From the NCBI GenBank assembly GCA_036867785.1, contig CP145424.1, positions 682,001 through 746,000 on the forward strand: a stretch of DNA of 64,000 nt, written 5' to 3'. The position numbers and the translations under genes were made by a program. Shown piece after piece: positions 22,042-54,932 of the stretch (its first letter is position 1; each line of letters begins with the position of its first letter). The notes under the pieces were generated by a model. It was given only the letters and a program-made list of their open reading frames with translations, ran no database searches and was not told the origin of the DNA. This stretch comes from Plasmodiophora brassicae. Lineage: Eukaryota.

Positions 22042-25000
22042 CTAGGCGGGACCGGGTTCACGTAGAAGCGCCAGGCAGATCCTGCCTGGGCCAACGAACA
22101 CCGAGTGCACGGCACCGCCCGCTGGCACCTTCGTCGGTGGGACGAAGGCGGCGCCGCCTCCTCCCCAGACCAGGACGTCATTCGCGTCGCTGACGGCCAC
22201 GTTGAGATCGGGGCCGCCCGCCACCCGAACCACCCGGTACGCTGCGAACGGCTCCAGAACGGTCGGCTGGGGCAGCTGGGCGACCCCGGTTCCAGCACCG
22301 AGCAGGCCTTCCGACGGGGCTTGCCCCCAGGCCCACAGCCGCCCGTCGTCTGTATGCCCGGTCAGTATCATCAGGCAGGGCCAGCGACCGCGGCTGCGGT
22401 TAGGTACCTGTGCATGCGAACCCGGCCTGGCCAGACGCGGCGACGTCGACGACGTTGCCGGGGATGGCAACGGGCGTCGCCGACGACGCGTCCCGTCCCC
22501 ACTGGTAGACCTTGCCGGATTGGGAACGCGCCAGGAACCCGCCCTGCATCGCGACGACGTCGACGATGACCGCGTTGTCGTCCGGGAACGTTCGCTGCCG
22601 GGGCGTGGGCGACGCCGGCGACCAGGTCCAGACCCGGCCGGCATCGTCGAGGGAGCACCGCGTGATCCCATCGCTGATGCGGATCTGCTCGTGGCGGACG
22701 CTCGTGGCATCCGGCCCCTGCTGCTGGGCCTCGCGACAGTACGTTCCCTGGGCGTTGACCGACAGGATGTCGCCTCGGGAATCCACAACGACGATCGTGG
22801 AGTCGTTGCCAACGGCAGCGTCCCGTAGGCGACAGGAATCGAACGCCTGGACGCGTCGCCGGGTACCATCGGGGTCGAACCACAGCAGCTGGCGCGATGA
22901 CGTCAACGCGACGGTGGCACCTCCTCCGCTCTTCGACACGGCCACGATGCGGTCGTCGAGCGATGCCAACGCGGGCGATATCATTTGGCACCGCCAGGCG
23001 GATGGCTGTGCGGCGGTGGCAGCCGCTGTGGAACGCGATCGCAGCGCCCGCGACAGTTCGTTGCGGATCATGGCCTGGAAGCGATCGTGAATGCGTCTCT
23101 GGCGTTCGCGCTGCGCCGCCTCGTCGAGGACGGGCGGCGCTGCGACAGGTTCGGGTTGTGTCGGTGCTGCCGCCGATGCGGCGCCCTTTCGCGCCTGGCC
23201 TGCACCCGCCGGTTTCTTCGCGCCTTGCTGCTGCTGCTGCTGCTCTTGTGCCATCCGCATCGCTTCGTCCTCCTTCCGCCTATCGTCGTCGACGTCGATC
23301 ATGGCGCGGACGTGGACGTCAGGGAGGACATCGGCGACGTCGACGAGCGCGCCGCGAACGACAGCGTAAGCGTCCGGTGATGGGGCGGGTCGCCGTGCGC
23401 AACGACCGACGAGTTCGTCGAGCTCCTTACGCCATTCAGCAGCGGAGGGATGCCAGGGCAGGGCTTGCTGCAGCGTGTCGTACAGCGTCTGGACGTCGTG
23501 GTCCCAGCGAGCCGACAGCCGCGCCGTCCTCGACAACGCTGACCGCATGCGTTCCGCCAATGTTTCCAACGCGTCGACAATATCTGGGATGTACCACAGC
23601 CTTGGAGTTCGGCAGTTGTTCAACCGGTGGAAGCGTCCCGGGCGGTCCTCCGATCGGATCGGGGACGGACGGACCGTCTCGACCACGTCGTAGACGAGTC
23701 GCCTGGCGATGAACGCGACGCGTTCCTGATCGATCGCGTCGCGTAGCGCCCTTGCGACGCTGTCGACGTTGTGGCGAGAGTGGAGACGGCGGCCGACCAG
23801 GTGGACAGAGAATGGTGACGATGCCGCCGGGAACGTATCCAGGACGACGTCGTCGAGGAACACGCCCGGCGCCGTCGACTCGAATCGGAACGCGGCCGGG
23901 ACGGTCTCGCCCGGCAGGATCGTGAACCGCTGCGGGCTCCATCGGAATCGTTCTTCGCGTTCCGTTCCGACCCGCCTCCATTCGCAGTGCACAGCGCCGT
24001 TGCCTTCGTTGCGAAGGACGACAGTCGCTGACGCCGAGGAGACCGCTCCTGCTGGGACGCTGAGCGTCAGCGCGATCCGGGCGTCGGAGTGCCCGACGGC
24101 AGTGACGCGAACGAATGGTACAGTGGCCGGTTCGGCGGGCGGCTCGGGTCGCGGAGTCCGTGGCGGACTCCGCGATGGGGGCACCGGTGCCGTCACCTGC
24201 GCCAGGCACGGGTCGTGCAGCGCGTACGCCGGCGCCGACCGCCGCAGGTCGAACAGGTCCTGGCCGACGACCTCCAGCGCGTCGCACTCGACGACGTCAT
24301 GCGGGCGCAGTTCGTGCAGGCGGCGTTGCATCTCCCGGCAGCGCTCCTGGTACGCGGGAGACGATTTCCAGCGCTGGACCGGGACGCGGTGCGTCGGGCG
24401 CCGGATCGTCTCCATCACCTTGTTGTCGTCGTTGCGGATCTCGCAGAATAGGCCGGAGAACATGTTGCCGACCTGGACGAACTGTGTGGTGTCGCCGCGA
24501 AGCGACGTGCGCCACGACGCCTCCGTCGCCATCTTCTTCTGGAACGGCACAGCGATTGACAGCAGGTGAAAGGCTTCCAGGCGCTCCCGGAAGGCGTTTC
24601 CCGTGTCCATGGTGAGCGTGTCGTCCGGGCTGACGCCGAGTTTCGCGGCCACTGCCTGGCGGGTTCTCTGCCAGGACGCCATGGTGCGCTCCCAACGTTT
24701 CAGAATGCGGCTCTCGCGTGTCGCCGCGATCTGGTCGCCTCGCGGCATCATGGCCAGCTGTCGAGCGGCTTGCTCGCGCTCGACGGCAGCAGCGGCGCGC
24801 GTCTCTTCGACCAGTCGCCGGTAGAGCTCGCGTTGATCGGTGATGGGAGCAGGATTGGATTCAGCATCTGGAGGCGTTGCCCTGGGCGTCGCCGTCGAGT
24901 AGAGGACAGTCTGTGGGACAGCCTTGACCAGTGCGGGATCCTCTGGCATCGTCACGGTCCCTCCCGTCACGCGCGGCAACGTCTGTCCTGGGCGAATCCG

Positions 25001-25156
25001 TCTCGCGACCAGAACCTTCTTCGACCGGGGTGACACCGGCGCCGCCGCCTGCTTAGTGGCCCCCTGCCCCTCCTGGCGTCTGCGAACAACCAGCTTCCGT
25101 CGACTACGACATGCGCCGCCGTCTCCATCCGCGATGGACGGCGCCAGCGTCTCCAT
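22042..25156 (-). CDS. MYCBP-associated protein (MYCBPAP)-like N-terminus fused to RCC1-like repeats (~1018 aa; intron 22350-22407)
   Basis: RESRILKRWE..WRTSLR...VGNMFSGLFC plus an Ig-like segment (LRNEGNGAVHCEW, ILPGET). The same ORF continues into DAGRVWTWS, SGKVYQWG and DDGRLWAWG RCC1-type repeats. Confidence 0.65.
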
Positions 25157-25558
25157 AGGCGTTCGCCGCCTATCAGACGTTCACACAAGTACCCTAAGGG
25201 CGATCCGCCCATTAACCGCATGCGCCATTGTACCATCGAGACCGTAACAGTCGTCACGATCATCAGTACCGTTGCAAGGGGCACTTTATCGCCCATGCCG
25301 ACGTGACAGTGTGTCGATCACGTCCGGTCCCAGTGATGCGCCCACTTCCCTACCATAATTGTCATCAGCAAGCCAACGCTCTACGTTGCCGACGAGCGCC
25401 TCGTCTGCAAGTGGATCGACGACCTCAACAACGTCGTCGCCGTCCTTGTCTCGACATCATCATCGCCACCGCCACCCGCATCGTCACCAGCCACAGCGCC
25501 GCTGTCTTCCCCGCCATCAACGTCAATATAAAGAAGCATCGCCAACAGACTGATCAAT

Positions 25559-43904: not shown

Positions 43905-44225
43905 CAAACCGTCGGGCTTCGTGACGCGGTCCTGCGCAGAGTGCGCCTGCGCAAGTCTCCCACATCGACACGGCCCTAATAAGCCGCCGTTATCTGCGAG
44001 GACGCGCGCCTTAACCCGAAACCGTCTTCAGTTGGGTAGGCTTGTCGCCCGAGGCAGGACGTCGGCATCGTTGTGTTTAGCAGCGACACAATACTGGCCA
44101 GAAGTGCAAGATTCGTATGCAGGAAAGGCTCGGCTCGCTCCAAACGATACTGATGGCGACAGCAACGGTATTCCTCCGCACCCGACACTGGGATGCCTTA
44201 ACACCTGTGGACGGCAACCCAAACG

Positions 44226-44393
44226 AATCGGGACACTGGTGCGACCTCGAGTCCGCAGAGTGCCTTAGATCAGCAATCATAGGGCGCCTCCCACATATAC
44301 CGCGCAACACTGCCGTACGGCGTCCGTGGCGCACCAATCATACATTCTGCTATCTGGCCTTGTCTGGTCTTGTCCGTGTCCTGCGTGCTAATT
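44226..44393 (+). repeat. 5' LTR of outer element (AAT...ATT)
   Basis: Base-for-base identical to 54633-54800 on reading. Confidence 0.93.
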
Positions 44394-44406
44394 GGTTTTG
44401 GGCCCA
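44394..44406 (+). other. Primer-binding site, half-tRNA(iMet)-type
   Basis: GGTTTTGGGCCCA directly after the LTR, one mismatch to the Drosophila copia PBS GGTTATGGGCCCA. Confidence 0.7.
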
Positions 44407-44418
44407 TCCCAAGCCTTA

Positions 44419-44490
44419 CCCCTGTCCCTGTTCCTGTCCCCGTCCCTGTCCCCGTCCCTGTCCCTGTTCCTGCCCCAGCCCCAGTTCCCG
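44419..44490 (+). repeat. Degenerate 6-bp tandem repeat (CCCTGT-like) in outer 5' leader
   Basis: ccctgtccctgttcctgtccccgtccctgtccccgtccctgtccctgttcctg... Confidence 0.8.
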
Positions 44491-44597
44491 TACTGTCCCG
44501 TGTCCCAGCCCGTGTCGTGATCCAGTTCGCGTTGTGACCGCCCGCGCCCCACGCTCGGTTTGTACCCGTCCCTGTCCCCCTGCTCCCGCCGCCCGCA

Positions 44598-45545
44598 ATG
44601 GCGGAGGACTGGAACCAGATCGTCACAAACCTGAACTCTCAGATCCAGCACCTGCAACAGCAACAACAACAACAGCAGCAGCTTCTACAACAACAGCACG
44701 ATCAACTGCTACAACAGCAACAACTACTGCAGCAGCAACCGTCCCCACAACAGCGAATGGTCTCACAGCATCATGTTTCCGAGCCCAAGGTCAAGCTCCC
44801 CCCCATCTACAACGGCGGCCGTGGAGAACTTCGCGGTTTCCTGAACCAAGTCAAGCTGGTTATCACCCAGCGGCCTGCCACCTATGCGACCGACGCTCAG
44901 AAGGTCGCGCTGGTGGGACAGCTGCTGGGTGGTGATGCTCTTCGGTGGTTTAATCCGTTGTTCGAAAAGGACGACGCGGTGCTGACGGAGTTCGTCGCCT
45001 TTATCAAGGCCTTCAAGACAAGGTTCGGTGACCCTCATCTAGCCGAGACTGCGGCACGGAAGCTACAGCATCTTCGTCAGGGCCGAGGCACTGTCGCCCG
45101 CTTCGCGACAGAGTTCCAAAACCTGGTGGCGGACGCCGGGTTCAACGACTCAGCCTGCCGACACATGTTCCGCGCCGGCCTGTCCAGGGACGTGCAGTTC
45201 CTGCTGCTGTCCCTGCCCGTCGCCGAGACGCTTGACGAGCTTGTCATACAGGCAATCCGGTGTGACAACCGCCTGGCCGAGCACCGATCGACCACCGCCC
45301 TCGTTCCTGTCCCTGCTGCCTCCGCCGCCGCAGTGCCGTCCGCTCCTCCCCCAGCCCCGGCCGCCGCGGTTGGGGATCCCATGGTTATCGACGCCGCGAT
45401 CGGCGGTGGGCCCCGCGCGCCCTTAACCCAAGACGAGAAAGATCGCCGTCGTCGCGAAGGCCTATGCCTTTACTGCGGGGTGGCTGGCCATGTCGCAGTG
45501 TCCTGTCCCGTGCGTCCGCAGGGAAACGCCTCCCGGCGTGGCTGA
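44598..45545 (+). CDS. gag: Gag of outer element (Ty3/gypsy, sushi/PEG10-like) with polyQ and CCHC knuckle
   Basis: EPKVKLPPIYNG..LRGFLNQV..KVALV..LLGGDALRW, LRQG..V..FATEF, RRRREGLCLYCGVAGHVAVSC. Confidence 0.88.
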   Translation: MAEDWNQIVTNLNSQIQHLQQQQQQQQQLLQQQHDQLLQQQQLLQQQPSPQQRMVSQHHVSEPKVKLPPIYNGGRGELRGFLNQVKLVITQRPATYATDAQKVALVGQLLGGDALRWFNPLFEKDDAVLTEFVAFIKAFKTRFGDPHLAETAARKLQHLRQGRGTVARFATEFQNLVADAGFNDSACRHMFRAGLSRDVQFLLLSLPVAETLDELVIQAIRCDNRLAEHRSTTALVPVPAASAAAVPSAPPPAPAAAVGDPMVIDAAIGGGPRAPLTQDEKDRRRREGLCLYCGVAGHVAVSCPVRPQGNASRRG

Positions 45546-47757
45546 AATCCCGGTCGGTCGCCACGCCTACCAATACACCTGTTCCATCATGCAACCCCGA
45601 CCACTTCTTTCCCGAGCCAAGTATGATTTCCGCGTCCACCAACCTCGTCGAGCACTTGGACCGTGTCCTAAGCATAGACGTGTCCCTTCAACTCGACAAT
45701 GGCAAGACTGTACAGACGACGGCACTTATCGACTCAGGAGCAACCAACGACTTCATACACTCCGACTTCGCCCGCGCTCACAACGTTCCGCTCACCAAGA
45801 AACCCGCACCGGTAGATCTGGAGGTAATTGACGGGCGGCGGCTACCGAAGGTGGCGCTGGAAACGGCCCCTGTCCGCCTCAGTATCGGCAACCACTCCGA
45901 ATCGATCGTGCTGAACGTAATCGACTCCCCGCGATTCCCGATTATCCTCGGCATGACCTGGCTCTCAAGGCACAACCCGAGCATTAACTGGACACACCGA
46001 ACGATGGAGATTACTCGTGTCGCTCAGGACGCCGCGCGCGAACAGAGCGAACCCAAGGAAGCCATCACAGCCCTAACCTTGCACGACAATGGCGTATTCT
46101 CTCAGCAACCAGACCCACCACCTCAAGACCTCTCGCCACCCACACGACACGAACGGCGGTCGAGGGCCCGTGTTGACAGCGGCAAGGTGCCCTACGCCGT
46201 TCCGCTTCCCGGGGATTGGAACCAAGCCCAGAGTCTCAAGCGTTGGCACCACCGCCTCGGCCACCGTAACCTGCGTGACGTCATCCTGATGGCAAATCAT
46301 GACCTTACCGAATCCATGGAGATCCTGGCACAGAAGGTTGACAGGTTCTGCGAAGGGTGCGCTATCGCGAAAGCCAAGGAACGTCCTTTCCCCTCGGAGT
46401 CCAAAGAAAAACAGTGGAACGTGCTCGAGAGAATCGACGTCGACGAATGCGGACCGCTTCCCGTCGCCTCACTCAAAGGGGAGCGATACTTTATCACGTT
46501 CACGGAATTTGCAACCAGGATGAAATTTACCTTCCTGTTGCACCACAAGAACCAGGCGCTGACCAAGTTCAAGGAGCTCAAGACTCGAATTGAGAATCGC
46601 CTGGAGAAATCCATTAAGATCCTCTTCGGCGACAACGATGGGGTATTCATCAACAACGAGTTCAAGGCGTTCTTGCAGGACAACGGGATCGAGTGGAGAT
46701 CAACGGTGGAGTATTCCTCCAAGCAGAACGGTGTCTCCGAACGGGGACACCTGACGCTCATGGACTCCGGTCGCGCAATGCTCGTACACGCAAGGCTCCC
46801 CAAGCAGTTCTGGGGACCCGCAATTCTGACTGCCAGCCAGGTCCATAATCTCTGCCCCCACCCACGCGATCCCTCGACCACGCCCCATGAAATGCTGTCG
46901 CGCTCGAAACCTGATATCCGCTACCTTAGAACGTTCGGGTGCGACGCATATGGCTACGTCCCGTCCAGCCAGAGAACGAAGCTGGACCCACGCGCCGTGA
47001 AAGGCATCTTCATCGGATATGCAGATCACCAGAAAGGGTACGTCCTCTATCACCCTTCGTCCGGCCTGATCAAGGTGTACCGCAGCGTGACGTTCAGCGA
47101 AGACAGCTTCGGCGGCCGCAGTGCGGACGACGCCCTCGCCGATCCCGAGGAACCTGAGTCTGGATACGACAGCGACTACGTTCCCTCCGGTGACGAACCC
47201 GCTGTCGAGGGGGCGCAGTCCGCCGCAGGCCCCAATGAGGATCCGCGACCTCCCACCGAACGAGCCCGGCGTCTCTCCCGCAAGCCAGACCGTTTAGGAG
47301 ATCCCGTCCACCACGCCTGGATCGCGTCCCTGCAACCTACCAACGACGATCCTATTCACCACATGTGGATAGGTTCCACACATCAATGCGACGACGACGA
47401 TGACGCCGCGCTCAATGCAGATGACCCCGACACTCCAAACACATATGAAGACGCCATGGCAAGTCCCGAGGCAGAGTTCTGGACTAAGGCGATGGCCGAT
47501 GAATTGAAGAGCCTGAAACAGCACAAGACATGGGAAGCCGTGGAGCGACTACCCGTCGGGGCACGCCCCATCGGATGCCGCTGGGTCTACAAGCGCAAGA
47601 TCACCAAGTCAAGTCAGATCCCGCCGGACACCACCTGGGTTCTCCGCCATGACCCCGACGGTGTCACCTCCTACCGGTACAAGGCTCGACTATGCATACT
47701 CGGCTACAGACAGCGCCAGGGGATCGACTACACGAACACCTATGCGCCAGTCGTCCG
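45464..47757 (+). CDS. pol: Outer pol, 5' part (PR, GAG-pre-integrase, integrase, RT N-terminus), expressed by -1 frameshift
   Basis: ALIDSGAT..IILGMTWL..NPSINW protease. WHHRLGH..CEGC, DECGP, GDND, QNGVSER, LRTFGC..KLDPRA..GIFIGY copia-type IN. IGCRWVYK..YKARL..QRQGIDY..TYAPVV copia-type RT, cut by the nested insertion. Confidence 0.9.
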
Positions 47758-47844
47758 TGTGATAACTGAATAAATCCCGAACCCCGCGACGGACTTCGCC
47801 AGTCCGTCAAAGCGTTCGTTGCATCAGCTTGCCTGATCGTGACA
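47758..47844 (+). repeat. 5' LTR of nested chromovirus
   Basis: tgtgataactgaataaat...gatcgtgaca, identical to 53208-53294. Confidence 0.95.
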
Positions 47845-47885
47845 TTTTGACGGACTAACCAACGGTCACCGCCGTCCCGCCCGCC

Positions 47886-47990
47886 CCGTTCCGCCCGCTC
47901 CGTTCCGCCCGCTCCGTTCCGCCCGCTCCGTTCCGCCCGCTCCGTTCCGCCCGCTCCGTTCCGCCCGCTCCGTTCCGCCCGCTCCGTTCC
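47886..47990 (+). repeat. 14-bp tandem repeat (CCGTTCCGCCCGCT) x7.5 in chromovirus 5' leader
   Basis: Directly visible perfect array. Confidence 0.92.
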
Positions 47991-48029
47991 TGCCGTCCCG
48001 TTTCCTGTCCGTCTACCGGTGTGTTCGCG

Positions 48030-48878
48030 ATGACAACGAGCGAGGACCAGATCGCCGCACTGGCAGATCAAGTGCGGGACCTCACGCTCACTGTCAGCGA
48101 CATGCTGCACCAGCTGAAAGCTATGCAGTCCGTAGTGGCCGACCGGGTCGAAGATGCCGTTGGGACAGCGATAAATCGCTCGCTGCCCGACAAGATGCCG
48201 CCGAGCGAGCCGTCGCCGACATCCCGACACATCGTCGACCACCAGATCCACCTGCCCCGCTTTACCGGGCGTATTCGCGACAGTTCCACGAACTCCCGCG
48301 ACTTTCTGAAGTGTCTGTCAAGGACGCTGCAGCTCCCGTCATCGACGACCCGCCTTCCGCCGGCGGCGCACAGCGCCCTTCTTAGATCGCTGGAAGGCCC
48401 GGCGTTGGAAGTCTATTTCGGGCTGCCGGACGACGCCACGATGGCCGACCTGTCCTACGCGATGTCAAAATGGTTTCCGGTGCCGACGTTCGAACAGCTG
48501 GAGGAGTGCTTCGACAACCTCACCCAGACCGAACCTGTCGAAGAGCATGTGTTGATGTTCAACAATTTGTATCAAGCGCTTCAGCGCGCGGATGCAACCT
48601 TCAAGATGAGTTCGGCCCGGCGCGCGTCGAAGTTCCGGAAGTCGCTGCATACTGCCTTGTCGGAAAAACTGTTCGAGGACATGATCACCGACTTCGACGA
48701 GATGGTCAAAAAGGCGAAACACCTCTGCCCGCGCTACCCCGTTCCGAAGGTTGTCGCCGCCGATGCCCGTGAGCGTGCCCGCAAGGACGGCCTCTGCTTC
48801 TACTGCAAAGAAGATGGCCACCGGATCGCGGATTGCCCGAAACGGCCGCCGGTTGCACCGGGAAATGTCCAAGGGTGA
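48030..48878 (+). CDS. gag: Gag of nested chromovirus
   Basis: [35 protein letters not shown] zinc knuckle. Confidence 0.85.
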
Positions 48879-51800
48879 CCGCCAACGGGTTCGCCGGCCA
48901 CCCAGTAAACTCTGCATTGTCATCCGAACCCGACCCTGTTCAAATAAGCGATCTCATGTTTCTCCACGCCCGCTCTGTCCCGCATCTCGTACTTCCGATG
49001 ACCATATACACCGGGTCCGAAAGTATCTCGACAACGGCCTTGATCGACTGTGGCGCGACTAGCAACTTTATCGACTGGTCCTTCGCGCGGCTCCACGTTC
49101 TGCCTACCCGCCCGACGCATCGTCCGATACCTGTCCGCGTTGTCGACGGCCGCCAGCTCGCACCTATATCACAGGAGACTCAGCCGTTGAGAACGACGGT
49201 GGACGCCCAGTTCTCGTGTGAGATCGTCCTGAATCTGATCAATTCGCCGACCTATCCCGTCATCCTGGGTCTGCCCTGGCTAGCCCAGACTAATCCAGAT
49301 GTGGATTGGCGCCGGCGGCTCGTCTCGCCGCGCCAGTGCCCCCCCTCGCCGTCAACGTCAACGCCGACAACTGTGGCGGATCCTGGCCATGCAGAAGCTG
49401 AGACAACCGAGGCAAGCGTGGCTGCGCCACACGACGACTGCCGTTATCCGGCCCTGGACGCCTCTAGTGCAGCTCCGCTCATCGCCCAGGCGCCTGTTAA
49501 CACAAAACAACATCCAGATCCAACTTCCGCACAAGACCTGATCGTGACACCATTGCCGCCTGCGGCCAACGATGAACGCCGGGTGGCAGAGTCCTTGGCG
49601 ACAGCCGCAATTGAGACTCAGGACAAAGCCGCTGGCGACCTGGAAACGGCTGACACCGGTAACACCCCTGCGAACTGCCTCGAGCTCGAATCGTTCCCCG
49701 ACCAGACAGGCTGGCTAACGTCGCCGGCGCGGGAGCAGCGACACAGGCGGGGAGCCGGTCGACGTCTACCAGATTGTCGTTTGGACGACGGTTCCAGGGC
49801 ACGCCAGGTGGTCAGCCTGTTCATGTGCTCATCCATCGTGGCGGCCGCTTGGGCGCTTGCCTTCGTCACTATGTGCCGCGAACCCGCACGCGTCGACCTT
49901 CGTGCTTATCTAAACACGTCATCTGACGACGCCTGTCCGATCGCCCCGCCGAACGCCGGCCCTGACGTTCTAGCCGGAGATGCTCCACAGTCGTCGTGCG
50001 ACGTACGGCCCACGGATTCTAATCAAGGCGACGGGACGCGGATCGACCACGTTCCCTTGCCGGCACCAAGCACTGAAGAACCTCTGGCGGCCAACGTTCC
50101 CATCCATCTAGTCGACGCCGAACCGTTCCTGGACGCACTCATGGACGACGCTCAGTGCTACCTCATCCATTATACGTGGACCGAGGACACCGAGTCAGAG
50201 CAGACGAAGATACCTGAAAAATACCAGGATTTTGCCGACGTGTTCGACGAGGCCACCGCCACATCCTTACCGCCGCACCGCGCCTCTGACTGCTCGATCG
50301 ACCTGAAACCGGGGACGGAGCCTCCATTCTGTCGCCTCTACGGCTTGTCTCCCCGCGAACAGGTAGCCCTCAAGAAGTATTTGGAAGATAACCTCCAGTC
50401 GAACTTCATACGGCCGTCGCGTTCATCTGCCGGCGCGCCGATCCTTTTCGCGAAGAAGAAGGATGGTTCGTTACGGCTTTGCGTTGATTACCGAGGCCTG
50501 AACTCGGTCACCGTGAAGAACCGTTACCCACTTCCGCTCATCGACCAGCTGCTTTCGACACTCGGTCAAGCAACGGTCTTCTCCAAGATCGACCTTCGAA
50601 GTGCGTACAACCAGATCCGCATTCGCGAAGGTGACGAATGGAAGACAGCATTCCGGACACCGTACGGACTGTTCGAGTACCTGGTTATGCCCTTCGGGCT
50701 TGCCAACGCCCCGGCATCCTTTCAAGCCTTCATGAACGAGACATTCAGCGACTTCATTGACCGTTTCGTTGTTGTTTACCTTGACGACATCTTGATTTTC
50801 TCCAAGAATGCTGAGGAACATGAACAGCACGTGCGTTTGGTGCTCGAACGTCTACGCTCCGCGCGCCTGACGGCCAAACTGTCTAAGTGCTTGTTCGACG
50901 CACCGGAGGTCGAATTCCTCGGCTACTTAGTGTCCAAGGACGGCCTCCGGTTGGATCCCAGCCGAGTAGACACAATACTCGCGTGGGCCCCGCCGCGTGA
51001 CCTCCACGGGCTGCAAGTCTTCCTTGGGTTCGCCAACTTCTACCGAAAGTTCATCCCGCATTTCGCGGAGATCGCACTTCCCTTGACGAACCTTACTCGC
51101 GGGGAAACCGAATTTATCTGGAACGAGACTGCTTCGACCGCCTTCGCAACTCTGAAGAGCGCGTTCACACGCGCTCCGGTCCTCGCCCACTTCGATCCTA
51201 GCGTGCCGTGCGAGATTGAAACGGATGCCTCCGACTTCGCCATTGCCATGGTCCTCTCACAACGGGGCCGTGACGGGGACTTACACCCTCTGGCGTTCTT
51301 TTCGAGGAAACTGGACCCCGCTGAGATCCGATATGCGGTCTACGACAAAGAGCTCCTGGCCGTTGTTGCGTCCTTCGAGAAATGGCGCCAGTTCCTGGAT
51401 TCGGATGAACATCAGACACTTGTGCACAGCGACCACCGCAACCTCAAGTACTTCATGACGACCCACAAGCTTAATCCGCGCCAAATCCGATGGTCCCAAC
51501 TGCTTAGCGGCTTCGACTTCATGATTCAGCACCGACCGGGCCGCTTGCACGGTAAACCTGACGCCTTGACGCGCCGCCCGGAGTACGTCCCGACGGCGTC
51601 TGAAGAAGGCATCCTGCAACAATCTCTCCAACTGCTCCCGCTTCATCGCCTAGTTCCGTCCCCCGTGGTGGACGCGTTCACCGTCCACGCGGAGGCGGCT
51701 CCGTCCGAGCCTCTCCTAGACCGTATCCGACGACACCAAGCGAGTGATCCGTTCGTCGCCAAGATTGCCGGTCTGCTCGACCGACCTCAAGGTAGGAAGT

Positions 51801-53194
51801 ATTGCCTGAGAGACGGCCTCCTGTACAAAGGACGCTCCTTGGTCGTCTCCGGAGACGAATGCAAGATCGAGATCCTCCGGCAACTCCACGATAATAGGGC
51901 CTCTGGTCACTTTGGTATCCGCAAAACGCTTGGGCTTGTCCAGCGTGAATTTTGGTGGCCTGGCATGAGGGCCTTCGTCAAACTGTACGTCTCATCCTGC
52001 GACATTTGTCAGAGAAGCAAGTCTCCGCGCCACAAACCGTCCGGGCTCCTGCTGCCTCTTCCCTTGCCGAGTTCTCTGTGGTCATCGATCTCAATGGATC
52101 TAATTGTCAAGCTTCCAGTTTCCGACGGCTACGATTCGGTCCTCGTCGTCGTCGACCGGTTTTCGAAAATGGCCCACTTCATTCCGTGCAAGGAGACCCT
52201 CACAGCGGTCGAGCTGTCCGACCTGTTTTTGCAGCAGATATTCCGCCTGCATGGCCTACCGGACGACATCGTCTCCGACCGGGGGCCCCAGTTCGTGTCG
52301 GCCTTCTGGAAGCACTTACTGGACCGTCTTGGTATCCAACGGAACTTGTCTTCATCCCGGCACCCGGAATCCGACGGCCAGACGGAACGCGTGAACCAGA
52401 TCCTCGAACAATACTTACGCTGCTATGTTAGCTACATGCAGGACGACTGGCTGCAACTTCTGCCTATGGCCGAGTTCGCGTACAACAACGCCGACCATTC
52501 GGCCACCGGCATGTCGCCGTTTTTCGCCAACTACGGGTTTCATCCAAGGGTGACGGAGCCTCGACCCAGGAATGGCCAAGTCTGTAACCCAGCCGCCGAT
52601 GAGCGTGCCGAATTCCTTGAGAAGGTTCGCCGCTACTTGAAGGGCCAACTGCAACGGGCGGTCGACGCTATGAAGCGCTCTGCGGATCGCCGTCGCCGCG
52701 AACCACCACCACTGCAGGTGGGCGATCTCGTCATGCTCAGGCGTGGAACCTTATCGACTGGCCGCCCGTGCGGGAAACTGGATGACCGTCTGCTGGGACC
52801 CTTCCAAGTTGTTCGCACAGTTAACCCCGTCGCATACGAAGTGAAGCTGCCTCCTACCTCGCGCCTACATAACGTCTTCCATGTGTCACAGCTGGAACCG
52901 TATACGCCTAATGTCCTTCCACATCGCCAACAGCCACCGCCGCCGCCCATTGTATTGGAAGATGACGACCAGCCCCTGTTCATCGTTAAGTCGATCTTGG
53001 ATTCCCGATACCGGTCGGGGCGGTTGCAATATCTCATAGATTGGGAAGGATACTCCCCGTCCGATCGCACCTGGGAACCCGCGGGCAATCTCCATGGGAC
53101 AGGAGGCCTGGACCAAGCGATTGCTGAATTTCATGCTCGATATCCCGATAAACCTGGCCCTCGCTCCCGAAACCGGCGGAGACCCAATCGCTAG
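48833..53194 (+). CDS. pol: Pol of nested chromovirus: PR-RT-RNaseH-IN-chromodomain, -1 frame to gag
   Basis: [63 protein letters not shown]; chromodomain [19 protein letters not shown]. Confidence 0.95.
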
Positions 53195-53207
53195 AAGAGG
53201 ACTATTC

Positions 53208-53294
53208 TGTGATAACTGAATAAATCCCGAACCCCGCGACGGACTTCGCCAGTCCGTCAAAGCGTTCGTTGCATCAGCTTGCCTGATCGTGACA
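53208..53294 (+). repeat. 3' LTR of nested chromovirus
   Basis: Identical to 47758-47844. Confidence 0.95.
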
Positions 53295-53299
53295 GTCCG

Positions 53300-54689
53300 G
53301 AGCGACATCCTCCGTCTAGTACTAGCCCTGTCCGTCCAAGACAAGGAGATCATCGCCGAGCAGATGGATGTGATGACCGCATTCCTCAACGCCCACCTCA
53401 CCGAAGAGATCTACATGGACTCCCCGAAAGGGATGAAGGCCAGAACCCGTTTCGTCAAGCTCCTACGATCGATCTATGGCCTGAAACAGGCCCCAAGAGA
53501 ATGGTTCAAGGTCATCGACGCCTTCCTCGTTAACGAATGCGGGTTCCAACGAGCCAAGTCCGCATCGTGCTTGTACTTCAAACGTGGTCCAACTGGACAG
53601 CTCGTCATTGTTGGGGTCTACGTCGATGATATTCCCATCGTCGGACATCCCGAACTCGTACAGGAAACCAAGTCAGCCCTCTCGAAGAGATTCAAGATGT
53701 CGGACATGGGAGAGCTTCAATCAGTCATTGGCTTCGACGTCGATAGACAAGGTAGATCGGTGTTCCTGTCGCAAGAACGCTACACGAAAACTATCCTCGA
53801 CACCTACGGCATGGCCGAATCGCGCCCCGTCTCGACACCGGCAGATGCGAACTTGAAGTTATCCACATCACTGTGCCCGCAGAACCAGGCCGATCGCGAA
53901 CTTGCCGCCTTAGAAGGCCAGCGCATCAACTATCGAGCAGCGGTAGGTCACCTAATGTGGCTGCTGCACACCCGGCCAGACATCGCCTATGCGGTGAACG
54001 AGGTCTCCCGATACGTGCAAGACCCAGGGCCAGCGCACTTCGTCGCGCTGAAGCGAGTCTTCAGGTACCTCAACGGCACTCGCAACTACGGCCTCCTGTT
54101 CGAAGGAGGTGGGGAAACGGCCACACCGCTCCTGGTCGGCTACTCCGATTCTGATTGGGGTGGAGACCTCGACACACGACGATCGACTTCGGGGTGCGTG
54201 TTCCTTCTGAATGGCTGCCCGGTTTCATTTCGCTCTAAGAAGCAGACCACGGTCGCGTTATCGTCGTGCGAGGCGGAGACGGTGGCGTCAACACTCGCGG
54301 CAACAGAAGGCGTCTGGTTGCGCAATGTGCTGGACGAACTAGGTTTTCCACAAGCTCAGCCTACACCTCTACACGTAGACAATCAGGGGGCGATCGCGTT
54401 CGCCAACAGCGAAATCAACCACAGCAAGATGAAACATCTCGCGCTCAAGGACCACTTCGTCAGAGAACTGGTGGCATCCAACCAGATCAAGGTGCACTAC
54501 GTCCGCTCGTGCGAGAACCTCGCCGACATCTTCACGAAACCGCTCGGAAAGCACAAGTTCGTAGAATTCCGTGCGGCCCTCAAGTGCGTACCGCATCCCC
54601 ACATGAACTTGGACTCTCAGGTCGAGGGGGGGAATCGGGACACTGGTGCGACCTCGAGTCCGCAGAGTGCCTTAGATCAGCAATCATAG
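53300..54689 (+). CDS. pol: Outer pol, 3' part (copia-type RT and RNase H)
   Basis: QMDVMTAFLNA, LLRSIYGLKQAPREW, VYVDD, TRPDIAYAV, GYSDSDWG..RRSTSG, VALSSCEAE, DNQGAI, ENLADIFTKPL. Confidence 0.93.
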
Positions 54690-54800
54690 GGCGCCTCCCA
54701 CATATACCGCGCAACACTGCCGTACGGCGTCCGTGGCGCACCAATCATACATTCTGCTATCTGGCCTTGTCTGGTCTTGTCCGTGTCCTGCGTGCTAATT
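54633..54800 (+). repeat. 3' LTR of outer element
   Basis: Follows the PPT and is followed by TSD AAACG. Confidence 0.93.
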
Positions 54801-54932
54801 AAACGGCCCTGCACCACTGACCCCATCCAAGTGCAGTATCCTGGCCATACCCCACTGTGTGCGCCTACTATACTGGGCATGCCTTCCGCCGAATCGGCGA
54901 CCACACGGTGTCATCCCAGCACCGTCCGTTAA

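What the first reader, a model, noticed from the sequence alone, without database searches (positions are those of the whole stretch)
44221..44393. Non-canonical LTR termini 5'-AAT...ATT-3' on a copia-integrase element
Seen: the boundaries are fixed independently by the TSD AAACG on both sides, the PPT ending at 54632 and the PBS starting at 44394. They give LTR ends AATCGG...GCTAATT rather than TG...CA. The integrase loop before the catalytic Glu reads EYSSKQNGVSER instead of the usual TPQQNGVAER. Known: this loop contacts the terminal CA in retroviral-type integrases. Inference: integrase end-specificity has co-evolved with the termini. TG..CA-based LTR finders would miss the family.
Basis: partly seen in the sequence, partly recalled or inferred. 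Interest (0 to 1): 0.78.

Follow-up and report, generated by a model that had tools for sequence, protein, structure and literature searches.

The report
Copia-type retrotransposon ending AAT…ATT
A young copia-type jumping gene in the clubroot parasite's genome really ends in AAT…ATT instead of the usual TG…CA, a more extreme case of a known kind of exception, but nothing yet shows that its integrase evolved to match.

Summary
Two 168-bp LTRs (44226-44393, 54633-54800) are 100% identical. They are flanked by the 5-bp duplication AAACG, preceded by the polypurine tract GAGGGGGGG, and followed by a 13-nt primer-binding site. That site matches the anticodon arm of initiator tRNA-Met at 12 of 13 positions. 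The integrated ends are AAT…ATT with no nucleotide lost, apart from a 1-nt ambiguity (G) at the left edge.

The host is Plasmodiophora brassicae. The element has copia order (PR-IN-RT-RH), but its gag, protease and -1 frameshift site are of Ty3/gypsy type. Its RT is split by a nested gypsy chromovirus with normal TG…CA ends.

Only this one insertion could be read as DNA. A 99%-identical protein record and four clade relatives support a non-TG LTR start only indirectly.

The co-evolution claim is weak as argued. The K is private and sits at a variable position, and the N aligned to HIV Q148 is unchanged. Real clade-level changes do exist: P→S in the loop, and N→H and R→L after the catalytic Glu. 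Their effect is untested.

Non-TGCA copia ends and the co-evolution idea are already published for plants. AA..TT is not among the types in the passages I read.

The parts
44221..44225 (.). Left copy of the target-site duplication AAACG
   Evidence: The same 5-mer lies at 54801-54805. G44225 could instead belong to the repeat.
44226..44393 (+). 5' LTR, 168 bp, AATCGG…GCTAATT
   Evidence: It is 100% identical to 54633-54800. No further copy lies in the window.
44394..44406 (+). Primer-binding site of the 'half-tRNA' kind, GGTTTTGGGCCCA
   Evidence: Its reverse complement matches 12 of 13 nt of the anticodon arm of initiator tRNA-Met printed in PMC8216282. The mismatch is at the third anticodon base. 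The host's own tRNA was not available, and the window holds no tRNA gene.
44598..45545 (+). gag ORF with an N-terminal poly-Q, a Ty3/gypsy-type capsid domain and a CCHC knuckle
   Evidence: Pfam Retrotrans_gag 5.4e-14 and Ty3_capsid 2.2e-9. No copia-type gag family was hit. ORF.
45521..45527 (+). Slippery heptamer G GGA AAC in the gag frame, the likely -1 frameshift site into pol
   Evidence: pol is open in the -1 frame from 45266. A hairpin at 45535-45567 has -17.6 kcal/mol, and 8 of 200 shuffles fold as well.
45528..47757 (+). pol part 1: gypsy-type protease, copia-type integrase and the start of the copia RT
   Evidence: Pfam RVP_2, gag_pre-integrs, rve, SH3_retrovirus and RVT_2. The protease is 43% identical over 102 aa to that of the nested gypsy.
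46709..46765 (+). Integrase active-site loop and following helix, EYSSKQNGVSERGHLTLMD (catalytic Glu at 46739-46741)
   Evidence: D393, D456 and E492 are invariant in A2. Column statistics. Alignments to PFV and Ty1 integrases.
47758..53294 (+). Nested Ty3/gypsy chromovirus with 87-bp LTRs TG…CA and TSD GTCCG (47753-47757 and 53295-53299). It splits the outer RT.
   Evidence: RVT_1, RT_RNaseH, Integrase_H2C2, rve, Chromo.
53300..54689 (+). pol part 2: rest of RT and RNase H. The ORF reads through the PPT and 54 nt into the 3' LTR before its stop.
   Evidence: RVT_2 6.6e-40. The tail is …VEGGNRDTGATSSPQSALDQQS*. P0030 reads uninterrupted across the insertion point.
54624..54632 (+). Polypurine tract GAGGGGGGG
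   Evidence: It lies directly before the 3' LTR.
54633..54800 (+). 3' LTR, 168 bp
54801..54805 (.). Right copy of the target-site duplication AAACG

Best explanation
This is a genuine, recently inserted LTR retrotransposon of Plasmodiophora brassicae. It has copia gene order and copia-type integrase, RT and RNase H. Its integrated ends are 5'-AAT…ATT-3'.

Shown:
- Identical 168-bp LTRs.
- A 5-bp target duplication abutting them.
- A G-rich polypurine tract ending exactly where the 3' LTR starts.
- A primer-binding site of the copia/Ty5 'half initiator-tRNA' kind starting exactly where the 5' LTR ends.

Inferred mechanism. Plus-strand priming after the G run sets the left cDNA end at AAT. Removal of the half-tRNA primer sets the right end at ATT. 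The outer ends of the inserted copy coincide with these inner junctions, so the integrase joined a blunt cDNA without trimming any nucleotide. Both reactive 3' ends read …ATT-OH rather than …CA-OH.

I think it most likely that this copia-type integrase has a weak requirement for end sequence. It would read at most the 3-bp symmetric ATT. The ends would have drifted away from TG…CA in this lineage, as they have in many plant copia families. A specifically re-tuned recognition is possible but less likely.
For: - LTR pair, TSD, PPT and PBS.
- Copia order and domains.
- Not a post-insertion mutation: both LTRs are 100% identical, and the inner junctions PPT|AAT and ATT|PBS carry the same bases as the outer ends. 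The lotus paper uses the identical-LTR argument (passage).
- A 5-bp TSD is also made by the nested gypsy in this genome.
- A second record of the family exists. P0030 is 99% identical over 465 aa, lacks the gypsy insertion, and has the same read-through tail VEGG|NRDTGATSS…. The same PPT-LTR junction is therefore present in it at the protein level.
- Tails of relatives. 9 of 289 stored proteins carry E[GR]G within 25 residues of their C-terminus. In the 5 clade members the next residue is N (P0001, P0004, P0030) or S (P0002, P0003), never C. In the 4 others it is stop (P0028), C (P0058, P0165) or E (P0069). C (TGY) or a TGA stop would fit a TG start.
- In the wider tail scan, 8 further non-clade copia proteins end with a purine-coded run, then C, then stop.
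- Weak end requirement. 89% of classified non-TGCA elements in 50 plant genomes are Copia (10.1101/137141). In lotus, elements with different ends, including TGCA, commonly cluster together in the integrase tree (PMC9804982).
- Ty1 IN assays use blunt-ended LTR oligonucleotides (PMC9673352, passage).
Against: - Only one insertion could be read as DNA. P0030 may be the same locus in another isolate rather than an independent copy.
- The left boundary is ambiguous by one G.
- The PBS has a mismatch at the anticodon's third base, and the host's own initiator tRNA was not seen.
- The tails of relatives are degenerate evidence. N or S followed by a TGA stop could still hide a TG a few bases on.
- This integrase lineage does carry unusual residues next to the catalytic Glu (H and L for N and R, S for P). 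It forms a well-supported clade (0.99). That fits a changed specificity as well as it fits drift.
- No biochemical data exist.
Confidence: 0.75

Rival explanations
1. The integrase of this lineage has changed its end specificity together with the termini, so that it now prefers ATT-3' ends. The altered active-site loop and helix are the adaptation.
For: - A monophyletic integrase lineage contains the window, P0001-P0004, P0006, P0007 and P0110, with support 0.99 in a FastTree of 188 integrase cores.
- This lineage shares S for the usual P (S in 17 of 204), H for N at Glu+3 (H in 10 of 204) and L for R at Glu+4 (L in 10 of 204).
- The H column aligns to the PFV residue that is His in entries 3oym, 3oyn and 3s3o. 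By recall that residue is PFV N224, equivalent to HIV N155.
- Glu+4 would correspond to HIV K156, one of three residues said to bind viral DNA ends (PMC2615046). The equivalence is by position count and recall.
- All 5 readable clade tails lack the C or stop expected of a TG start.
- Yin et al. report that most TGTT-end integrases separate from typical ones in their tree (PMC5659011, passage).
Against: - The K is private and its column is variable. The N aligned to HIV Q148 is unchanged.
- Ty1's loop is far more divergent, and by recall Ty1 ends are canonical.
- P0007 shares the H-L signature but has an ordinary copia gag and protease, and its termini are unknown.
- In plants, AACA-end integrases could not be told from typical ones. 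Lotus elements with different ends commonly cluster together.
- PFV has Ser at the Glu+4 column, so that position is not a conserved CA reader.
- Nothing was tested biochemically or by protein-DNA modelling.
Confidence: 0.3
2. The boundaries are shifted by one base. The LTR is 169 bp (GAAT…AATT) and the target duplication is only 4 bp (AAAC).
For: The exact repeat is 169 nt because G44225 equals G54632. TSDs of 3 or 4 bp occur in a minority of maize elements, 108 and 483 of 43,226 (10.1101/137141, passage).
Against: - With the G included, the ends lose their inverted-repeat symmetry.
- The G is the last base of a nine-purine tract, where plus-strand primers normally end.
- The nested element in the same genome makes 5 bp.
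- The ends would still not be TG…CA.
Confidence: 0.1
3. This copy is a one-off. The family normally has canonical or trimmed ends, and this copy was integrated aberrantly or mutated afterwards.
For: Only n = 1 insertion was seen as DNA.
Against: - The LTRs are 100% identical, and the inner PPT and PBS junctions carry the same AAT and ATT. The parent RNA therefore already encoded these ends.
- A clean 5-bp TSD argues for normal integrase joining.
- There is no TG or CA near either end.
- P0030 has the same LTR start at the protein level.
Confidence: 0.03

Closest known systems
Plant non-TGCA Copia elements: Tos17 (TG..GA), TARE1 and Hopscotch (TA..CA), AtRE1 (TA..TA), Rosaceae TGTT and AACA families, lotus TGCT, TGGT and others
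   Same: - Copia superfamily.
- Intact identical LTRs with a TSD but without TG…CA.
- Short LTRs: 168 bp here, against averages of 272 bp and 316 bp for non-canonical plant Copia.
- Insertion close to genes. Here the element sits in an intergenic gap of about 330 bp (ORFs, Pfam).
- The idea that integrase and ends co-evolve is already raised in those papers.
   Different: - All four terminal positions differ from TGCA.
- In lotus the first base is always T and at most two positions change.
- Among the types named in the passages I read, none is AA..TT. The supplementary tables were not seen.
- The ends here stay an inverted repeat (AAT/ATT).
- The host is a rhizarian parasite, not a plant.
Drosophila copia and yeast Ty5 ('half-tRNA' priming)
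   Same: The PBS is complementary to the anticodon arm of initiator tRNA-Met rather than to its 3' end. A review states that copia uses a half-tRNA and that Ty5 primes from a cut in the anticodon loop (PMC5371799, passages).
   Different: There is one mismatch at the anticodon's third base. The ends are not TG…CA. The gag and protease are of gypsy type.
Yeast Ty1
   Same: It has copia-order pol. Its integrase is the best solved-structure match (7z0h_W, E 2.3e-20). In vitro Ty1 assays use blunt LTR ends.
   Different: Ty1 keeps NRT after the catalytic Glu. By recall, Ty1 ends are TG…CA, its gag-pol frameshift is +1, and it uses the full tRNA 3' end as primer.
Ty3/gypsy chromoviruses (for the gag-protease module only)
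   Same: - gag hits Retrotrans_gag and Ty3_capsid, and the protease hits RVP_2.
- The protease is 43% identical to that of the nested chromovirus.
- The CCHC region is similar.
- Both have a G GGA AAY slippery site in the same phase just before the gag stop.
   Different: Downstream of the protease everything is copia: IN comes before RT, with RVT_2, and there is no chromodomain.

Membership tests
Ty1/copia (Pseudoviridae-type) LTR retrotransposon | Domain order protease - integrase - RT - RNase H | tested here: met
   Pfam positions along pol: RVP_2 150-252, gag_pre-integrs 322-369, rve 392-484, SH3_retrovirus 547-615, RVT_2 788-832. RVT_2 continues after the nested insertion.
Ty1/copia (Pseudoviridae-type) LTR retrotransposon | Copia-type RT (RVT_2) and copia-type integrase | tested here: met
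   RVT_2 6.6e-40. The best PDB match is Ty1 integrase. Relatives are annotated as copia polyproteins.
Ty1/copia (Pseudoviridae-type) LTR retrotransposon | Copia-type gag (UBN2 / Retrotran_gag_2 family) | tested here: not met
   gag hits Retrotrans_gag, Ty3_capsid and DUF4939 only. The more distant relative P0007 has PF14223.
Ty1/copia (Pseudoviridae-type) LTR retrotransposon | LTRs bounded by 5'-TG…CA-3' | tested here: not met
   The ends are AAT…ATT.
Ty1/copia (Pseudoviridae-type) LTR retrotransposon | 5-bp target-site duplication | tested here: met
   AAACG lies on both sides. A 4-bp reading is possible because of the shared G.
Ty1/copia (Pseudoviridae-type) LTR retrotransposon | PBS complementary to initiator tRNA-Met next to the 5' LTR | tested here: inconclusive
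   12 of 13 nt match the anticodon arm of the human initiator tRNA printed in PMC8216282. The host tRNA was not available.
Non-TGCA (non-canonical-end) LTR retrotransposons as described for plants | Intact LTR pair with TSD and ends other than TG…CA | tested here: met
Non-TGCA (non-canonical-end) LTR retrotransposons as described for plants | End type is one of those listed in print (TGCT, TACA, TACT, TGGA, TATA, TGTA, TCCA, TGGT, TGTT, AACA) | tested here: not met
   AA..TT is not in the passages read. Supplementary tables of those papers were not seen.
Ty3/gypsy chromovirus (nested element 47758-53294) | Order RT - RNase H - integrase, chromodomain, TG…CA LTRs, 5-bp TSD | tested here: met
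   Pfam RVT_1, RT_RNaseH, Integrase_H2C2, rve and Chromo. LTR ends and TSD GTCCG.

The most novel reading that the evidence does not exclude
A rhizarian lineage of copia-order retroelements has replaced its gag and protease with a chromovirus module. Its integrase has remodelled the residues around the catalytic Glu (S for P, H for N, L for R). In this reading it specifically recognises ATT-3' ends instead of CA-3'. That would be a natural re-specification of the most conserved protein-DNA contact in retroviral-type integration.
Probability: 0.25. Interest if true: 0.7.

Novelty: new variant of a known kind. Interest (0 to 1): 0.45.

Why it matters
**Annotation.** Pipelines that demand TGCA, or one of a short list of variants, will not call this family as intact LTR elements in P. 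brassicae. Gypsy and Copia elements dominate that genome's 11-14% repeat fraction (bioRxiv 10.64898/2026.10.14.759018, passage). The genome papers I read give only bulk figures.

**Mechanism.** An active-looking copia-type element whose two 3' ends both read ATT is a clean natural test. It asks whether the CA dinucleotide is a chemical necessity for DDE integrases of the retroviral type or only a frozen habit. The clade-specific H and L next to the catalytic Glu give concrete residues to mutate.

**Evolution.** The gypsy-type gag, protease and frameshift module on a copia backbone is evidence of module exchange between the two superfamilies.

Tried and rejected
- **Other copies by DNA.** blastn of the LTR and of the internal parts against the window found only the two LTRs. 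tblastn with P0001 and P0007 found only this element.
- **Public DNA.** Only the bacterial/archaeal genome-contig collection was open. A scan with the clade alignment gave 42 pattern matches, none confirmed. An exact 25-mer spanning the LTR end and PBS gave 0.
- **ESM Atlas.** It could not take a new sequence. With the stored P0030 it returned only generic RVT_2 clusters.
- **RNA genes.** No tRNA gene and no Rfam family lies in the window, so the host initiator tRNA was not seen.
- **Structure prediction.** A job for the integrase had not finished and was not used.
- **Papers.** PMC1369817 (Ty5 primer paper) is not held. A search for 'chimeric retrotransposon' with copia, gypsy and gag gave 0 papers. 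A search on terminal dinucleotides added nothing relevant.
- **Rejected: a hidden TG…CA a few bases inside the repeat.** There is none within 11 nt of the 5' end or 20 nt of the 3' end.
- **Rejected: AAT/ATT belongs to the flanks.** GAAT is also present before the 3' LTR and AATT before the PBS, so these bases are part of the repeat.

Full report
**What is at the coordinates**

The window holds one 169-nt exact direct repeat, 44225-44393 and 54632-54800. Read with its flanks, it is a pair of 168-bp LTRs, 44226-44393 and 54633-54800. They begin AATCGG and end GCTAATT, and they are bracketed by AAACG at 44221-44225 and 54801-54805.

The extra repeated base is a G. It is both the last base of the left AAACG and the last base of the polypurine tract GAGGGGGGG (54624-54632). 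The left edge is therefore uncertain by one base. The reading with a 5-bp duplication and AAT…ATT ends is preferred for three reasons:
- It gives a 3-bp terminal inverted repeat.
- It ends the plus-strand primer at the end of the purine run.
- It matches the 5-bp duplication (GTCCG) made by the second element in the window.

There is no TG within the first 11 nt and no CA within the last 20 nt of the LTR.

**The primer-binding site**

The 13 nt after the 5' LTR (44394-44406) are GGTTTTGGGCCCA. Their reverse complement, TGGGCCCAAAACC, differs at one position from TGGGCCCATAACC. That second string is the anticodon arm of the human initiator tRNA-Met as printed in PMC8216282 and PMC8274982 (passages).

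A review of Ty3 reverse transcription (PMC5371799, passages) states two relevant facts. Drosophila copia uses a 'half-tRNA'. Ty5 primes from a 3' end made by cleavage within the anticodon loop of initiator tRNA-Met. The site found here is of that kind and starts exactly where the repeat ends.

The single mismatch lies opposite the third anticodon base, so it cannot be explained by a variant host initiator tRNA. The window has no tRNA gene and no Rfam match, so the host tRNA was not seen.

**Host and context**

An ORF at 22400-25177 (minus strand, MYCBPAP family) is 100% identical to a protein that NCBI names as Plasmodiophora brassicae (P0290). The element sits in a gap of about 330 bp between a pseudouridine synthase ORF and an S1/P1 nuclease ORF.

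Genome papers on this organism report only bulk figures for Gypsy and Copia repeats. I read passages of PMC11191646 and of bioRxiv 10.64898/2026.10.14.759018. My two searches on the organism turned up no description of LTR termini.

**Anatomy of the element**

- gag (44598-45545) hits Retrotrans_gag and Ty3_capsid, not the copia gag families.
- pol is open in the -1 frame from 45266. A slippery G GGA AAC lies in the gag frame at 45521-45527. A hairpin follows at 45535-45567 (-17.6 kcal/mol; 8 of 200 shuffles fold as well).
- pol carries a gypsy-type protease (RVP_2). It then carries gag_pre-integrs, rve, SH3_retrovirus and RVT_2, which is copia order and copia types.
- The protease is 43% identical over 102 residues to that of the gypsy element nested inside it (E 4e-29). 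The zinc-knuckle regions are alike. The nested element has G GGA AAT in the same phase before its gag stop.
- The RT is split at 47757/47758 by that nested chromovirus (47758-53294; 87-bp LTRs TG…CA).
- The frame arithmetic closes across the insertion. Stored protein P0030 reads …YAPVVRSDILRL… straight through the point.
- pol then runs through the polypurine tract, which encodes VEGG, and 18 codons into the 3' LTR.

**Is the family, and not only this copy, non-canonical?**

I could not collect DNA copies:
- The window has no other LTR and no other copia.
- The only open DNA collection is bacterial and gave nothing.

Three indirect arguments remain.

First, the two LTRs are identical, and the inner junctions (PPT|AAT, ATT|PBS) carry the same bases as the outer ends. 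The parent transcript therefore already specified these ends, and nothing was trimmed at integration.

Second, P0030 is 99% identical over 465 residues and lacks the nested insertion. It has the identical tail VEGG|NRDTGATSSPQSALDQQS. It may be another copy, or the same locus in another isolate.

Third, pol reads through the PPT in this lineage, so protein C-termini report the first LTR codons. Of 289 stored proteins, 9 have E[GR]G within 25 residues of their C-terminus:
- In the five clade members the next residue is N (P0001, P0004, P0030) or S (P0002, P0003).
- In the four others it is a stop (P0028), C (P0058, P0165) or E (P0069).

C is TGY, which would fit a canonical TG start. In a wider tail scan, 73 proteins had a usable tail. 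The residue after the last purine-coded run is C in 9 of them. Eight of those nine then stop: P0204, P0205, P0216, P0056, P0244, P0122, P0155 and P0058.

The tail evidence is degenerate. After N or S, a TGA stop could still supply a TG. Only P0004 (…VERGNRISS) excludes a TG over five codons.

**The integrase argument**

A review states that HIV-1 integrase binds the viral DNA ends mainly through Q148, K156 and K159 (PMC2615046, passage).

The phmmer alignment to PFV integrase pairs the window's Y-S-S-K-Q-N-G-V-S-E-R-G-H-L with PFV Y-H-P-Q-S-S-G-K-V-E-R-K-H-S. The matched PFV chain belongs to entries 3oym, 3oyn and 3s3o. By recall these are the N224H mutant, and PFV S217 and N224 correspond to HIV Q148 and N155.

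Of the 289 retrieved copia-type proteins, 204 had a parsable motif. The sample is not random, because it was retrieved by similarity to this element. The column counts are:

| Column | Window residue | Counts among 204 |
|---|---|---|
| Usual Pro | S | P 179, S 17 |
| Next position | K | Q 130, E 46, A 8, K 1 |
| Aligned to PFV S217 | N | N 201 |
| Glu+3 | H | N 177, H 10 |
| Glu+4 | L | R 174, L 10 |

H and L occur together only in P0001-P0007 and P0154.

In a FastTree of 188 integrase cores, the window groups with P0001, P0002, P0003, P0004, P0006, P0007 and P0110, with support 0.99. P0154 lies elsewhere. Rows without 150 residues before the motif and 110 after it were dropped.

Three conclusions follow:
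- The Q148-equivalent is unchanged.
- The lineage does have an unusual S-S loop and an unusual H-L pair beside the catalytic Glu.

Ty1 integrase (7z0h_W) has TADSRAHGVAERLNRTL. Its loop is much more divergent, and by recall its ends are canonical. PFV has Ser at Glu+4, so that position is not a universal reader of CA.

**What is already known**

- Non-TGCA LTR elements are described in plants. There are seven types in 42 of 50 genomes, and 89% of the classified elements are Copia, with short LTRs and insertion near genes (10.1101/137141, abstract and passages).
- TG..TT and AA..CA families occur in Rosaceae. The authors suggest that 3'-TT integrases have diverged (PMC5659011, abstract and passages).
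- Lotus has nine non-canonical end types (eight of them in Copia). There the first base is always T, at most two positions change, and elements with different ends commonly cluster together in the integrase tree (PMC9804982, passages).

Both the phenomenon and the co-evolution idea are therefore in print. What I did not find in those passages, or in my searches, is an AA..TT type or any example outside plants. The supplementary tables of those papers were not seen and may list more types.

**Verdict**

- The mechanism I favour is blunt, untrimmed joining of ends that reverse transcription sets exactly at the PPT and PBS. The joining enzyme would be a copia-type integrase that needs little or no specific end sequence.
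- A true re-tuning of end recognition remains possible (about 0.25-0.3). It is best tested through the H, L and S residues rather than the K.
- The gypsy-type gag-protease-frameshift module on a copia backbone was not part of the finding. It is at least as unusual as the termini.

Noticed in passing
44598-46021: The outer 'copia' element carries a Ty3/gypsy-type gag (Retrotrans_gag, Ty3_capsid) and a gypsy-type protease (RVP_2). The protease is 43% identical to that of the nested chromovirus. A -1 frameshift site G GGA AAC lies at 45521. The closest relatives P0002, P0004 and P0006 also show retroviral/gypsy-type protease domains, whereas the more distant P0007 has an ordinary copia gag and protease. 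This looks like a module swap between superfamilies.
   Followed up: partly
47758-53294: A complete Ty3/gypsy chromovirus is nested in the outer RT. It has very short 87-bp identical LTRs (TG…CA) and TSD GTCCG. Eleven nt just after its 5' LTR (47846-47856) are complementary to 47801-47811 inside the LTR. This resembles Tf1-type self-priming, by recall.
   Followed up: partly
48860-48866: The nested gypsy has a slippery G GGA AAT in its gag frame, in the same phase and the same P-x-G-N context as the outer element's site. The downstream fold is not better than shuffles, since 66 of 200 fold as well.
   Followed up: partly
47872-47990: There is a 14-nt tandem repeat (CCGTTCCGCCCGCT, 8.5 copies, 98% matches) in the leader of the nested gypsy.
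   Followed up: no
44420-44506 and 44649-44739: The leader of the outer element holds a CCCTGT microsatellite (14.5 copies). The start of gag encodes a poly-Q run from CAA/CAG repeats.
   Followed up: no
54633-54689: The outer pol ORF reads through the polypurine tract (VEGG) and 18 codons into the 3' LTR before stopping. The four clade relatives with complete C-termini (P0001-P0004) share the read-through.
   Followed up: yes
22400-25177 (minus strand): A MYCBP-associated-protein ORF is 100% identical to an NCBI protein of Plasmodiophora brassicae and 33% identical to one of Spongospora subterranea. This names the host.
   Followed up: yes
stored proteins P0227 and P0257: Two unnamed copia-type polyproteins combine Retrotrans_gag/Ty3_capsid and a chromodomain with copia IN and RT domains. 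They are further candidates for gypsy-copia module exchange (precomputed Pfam column).
   Followed up: no
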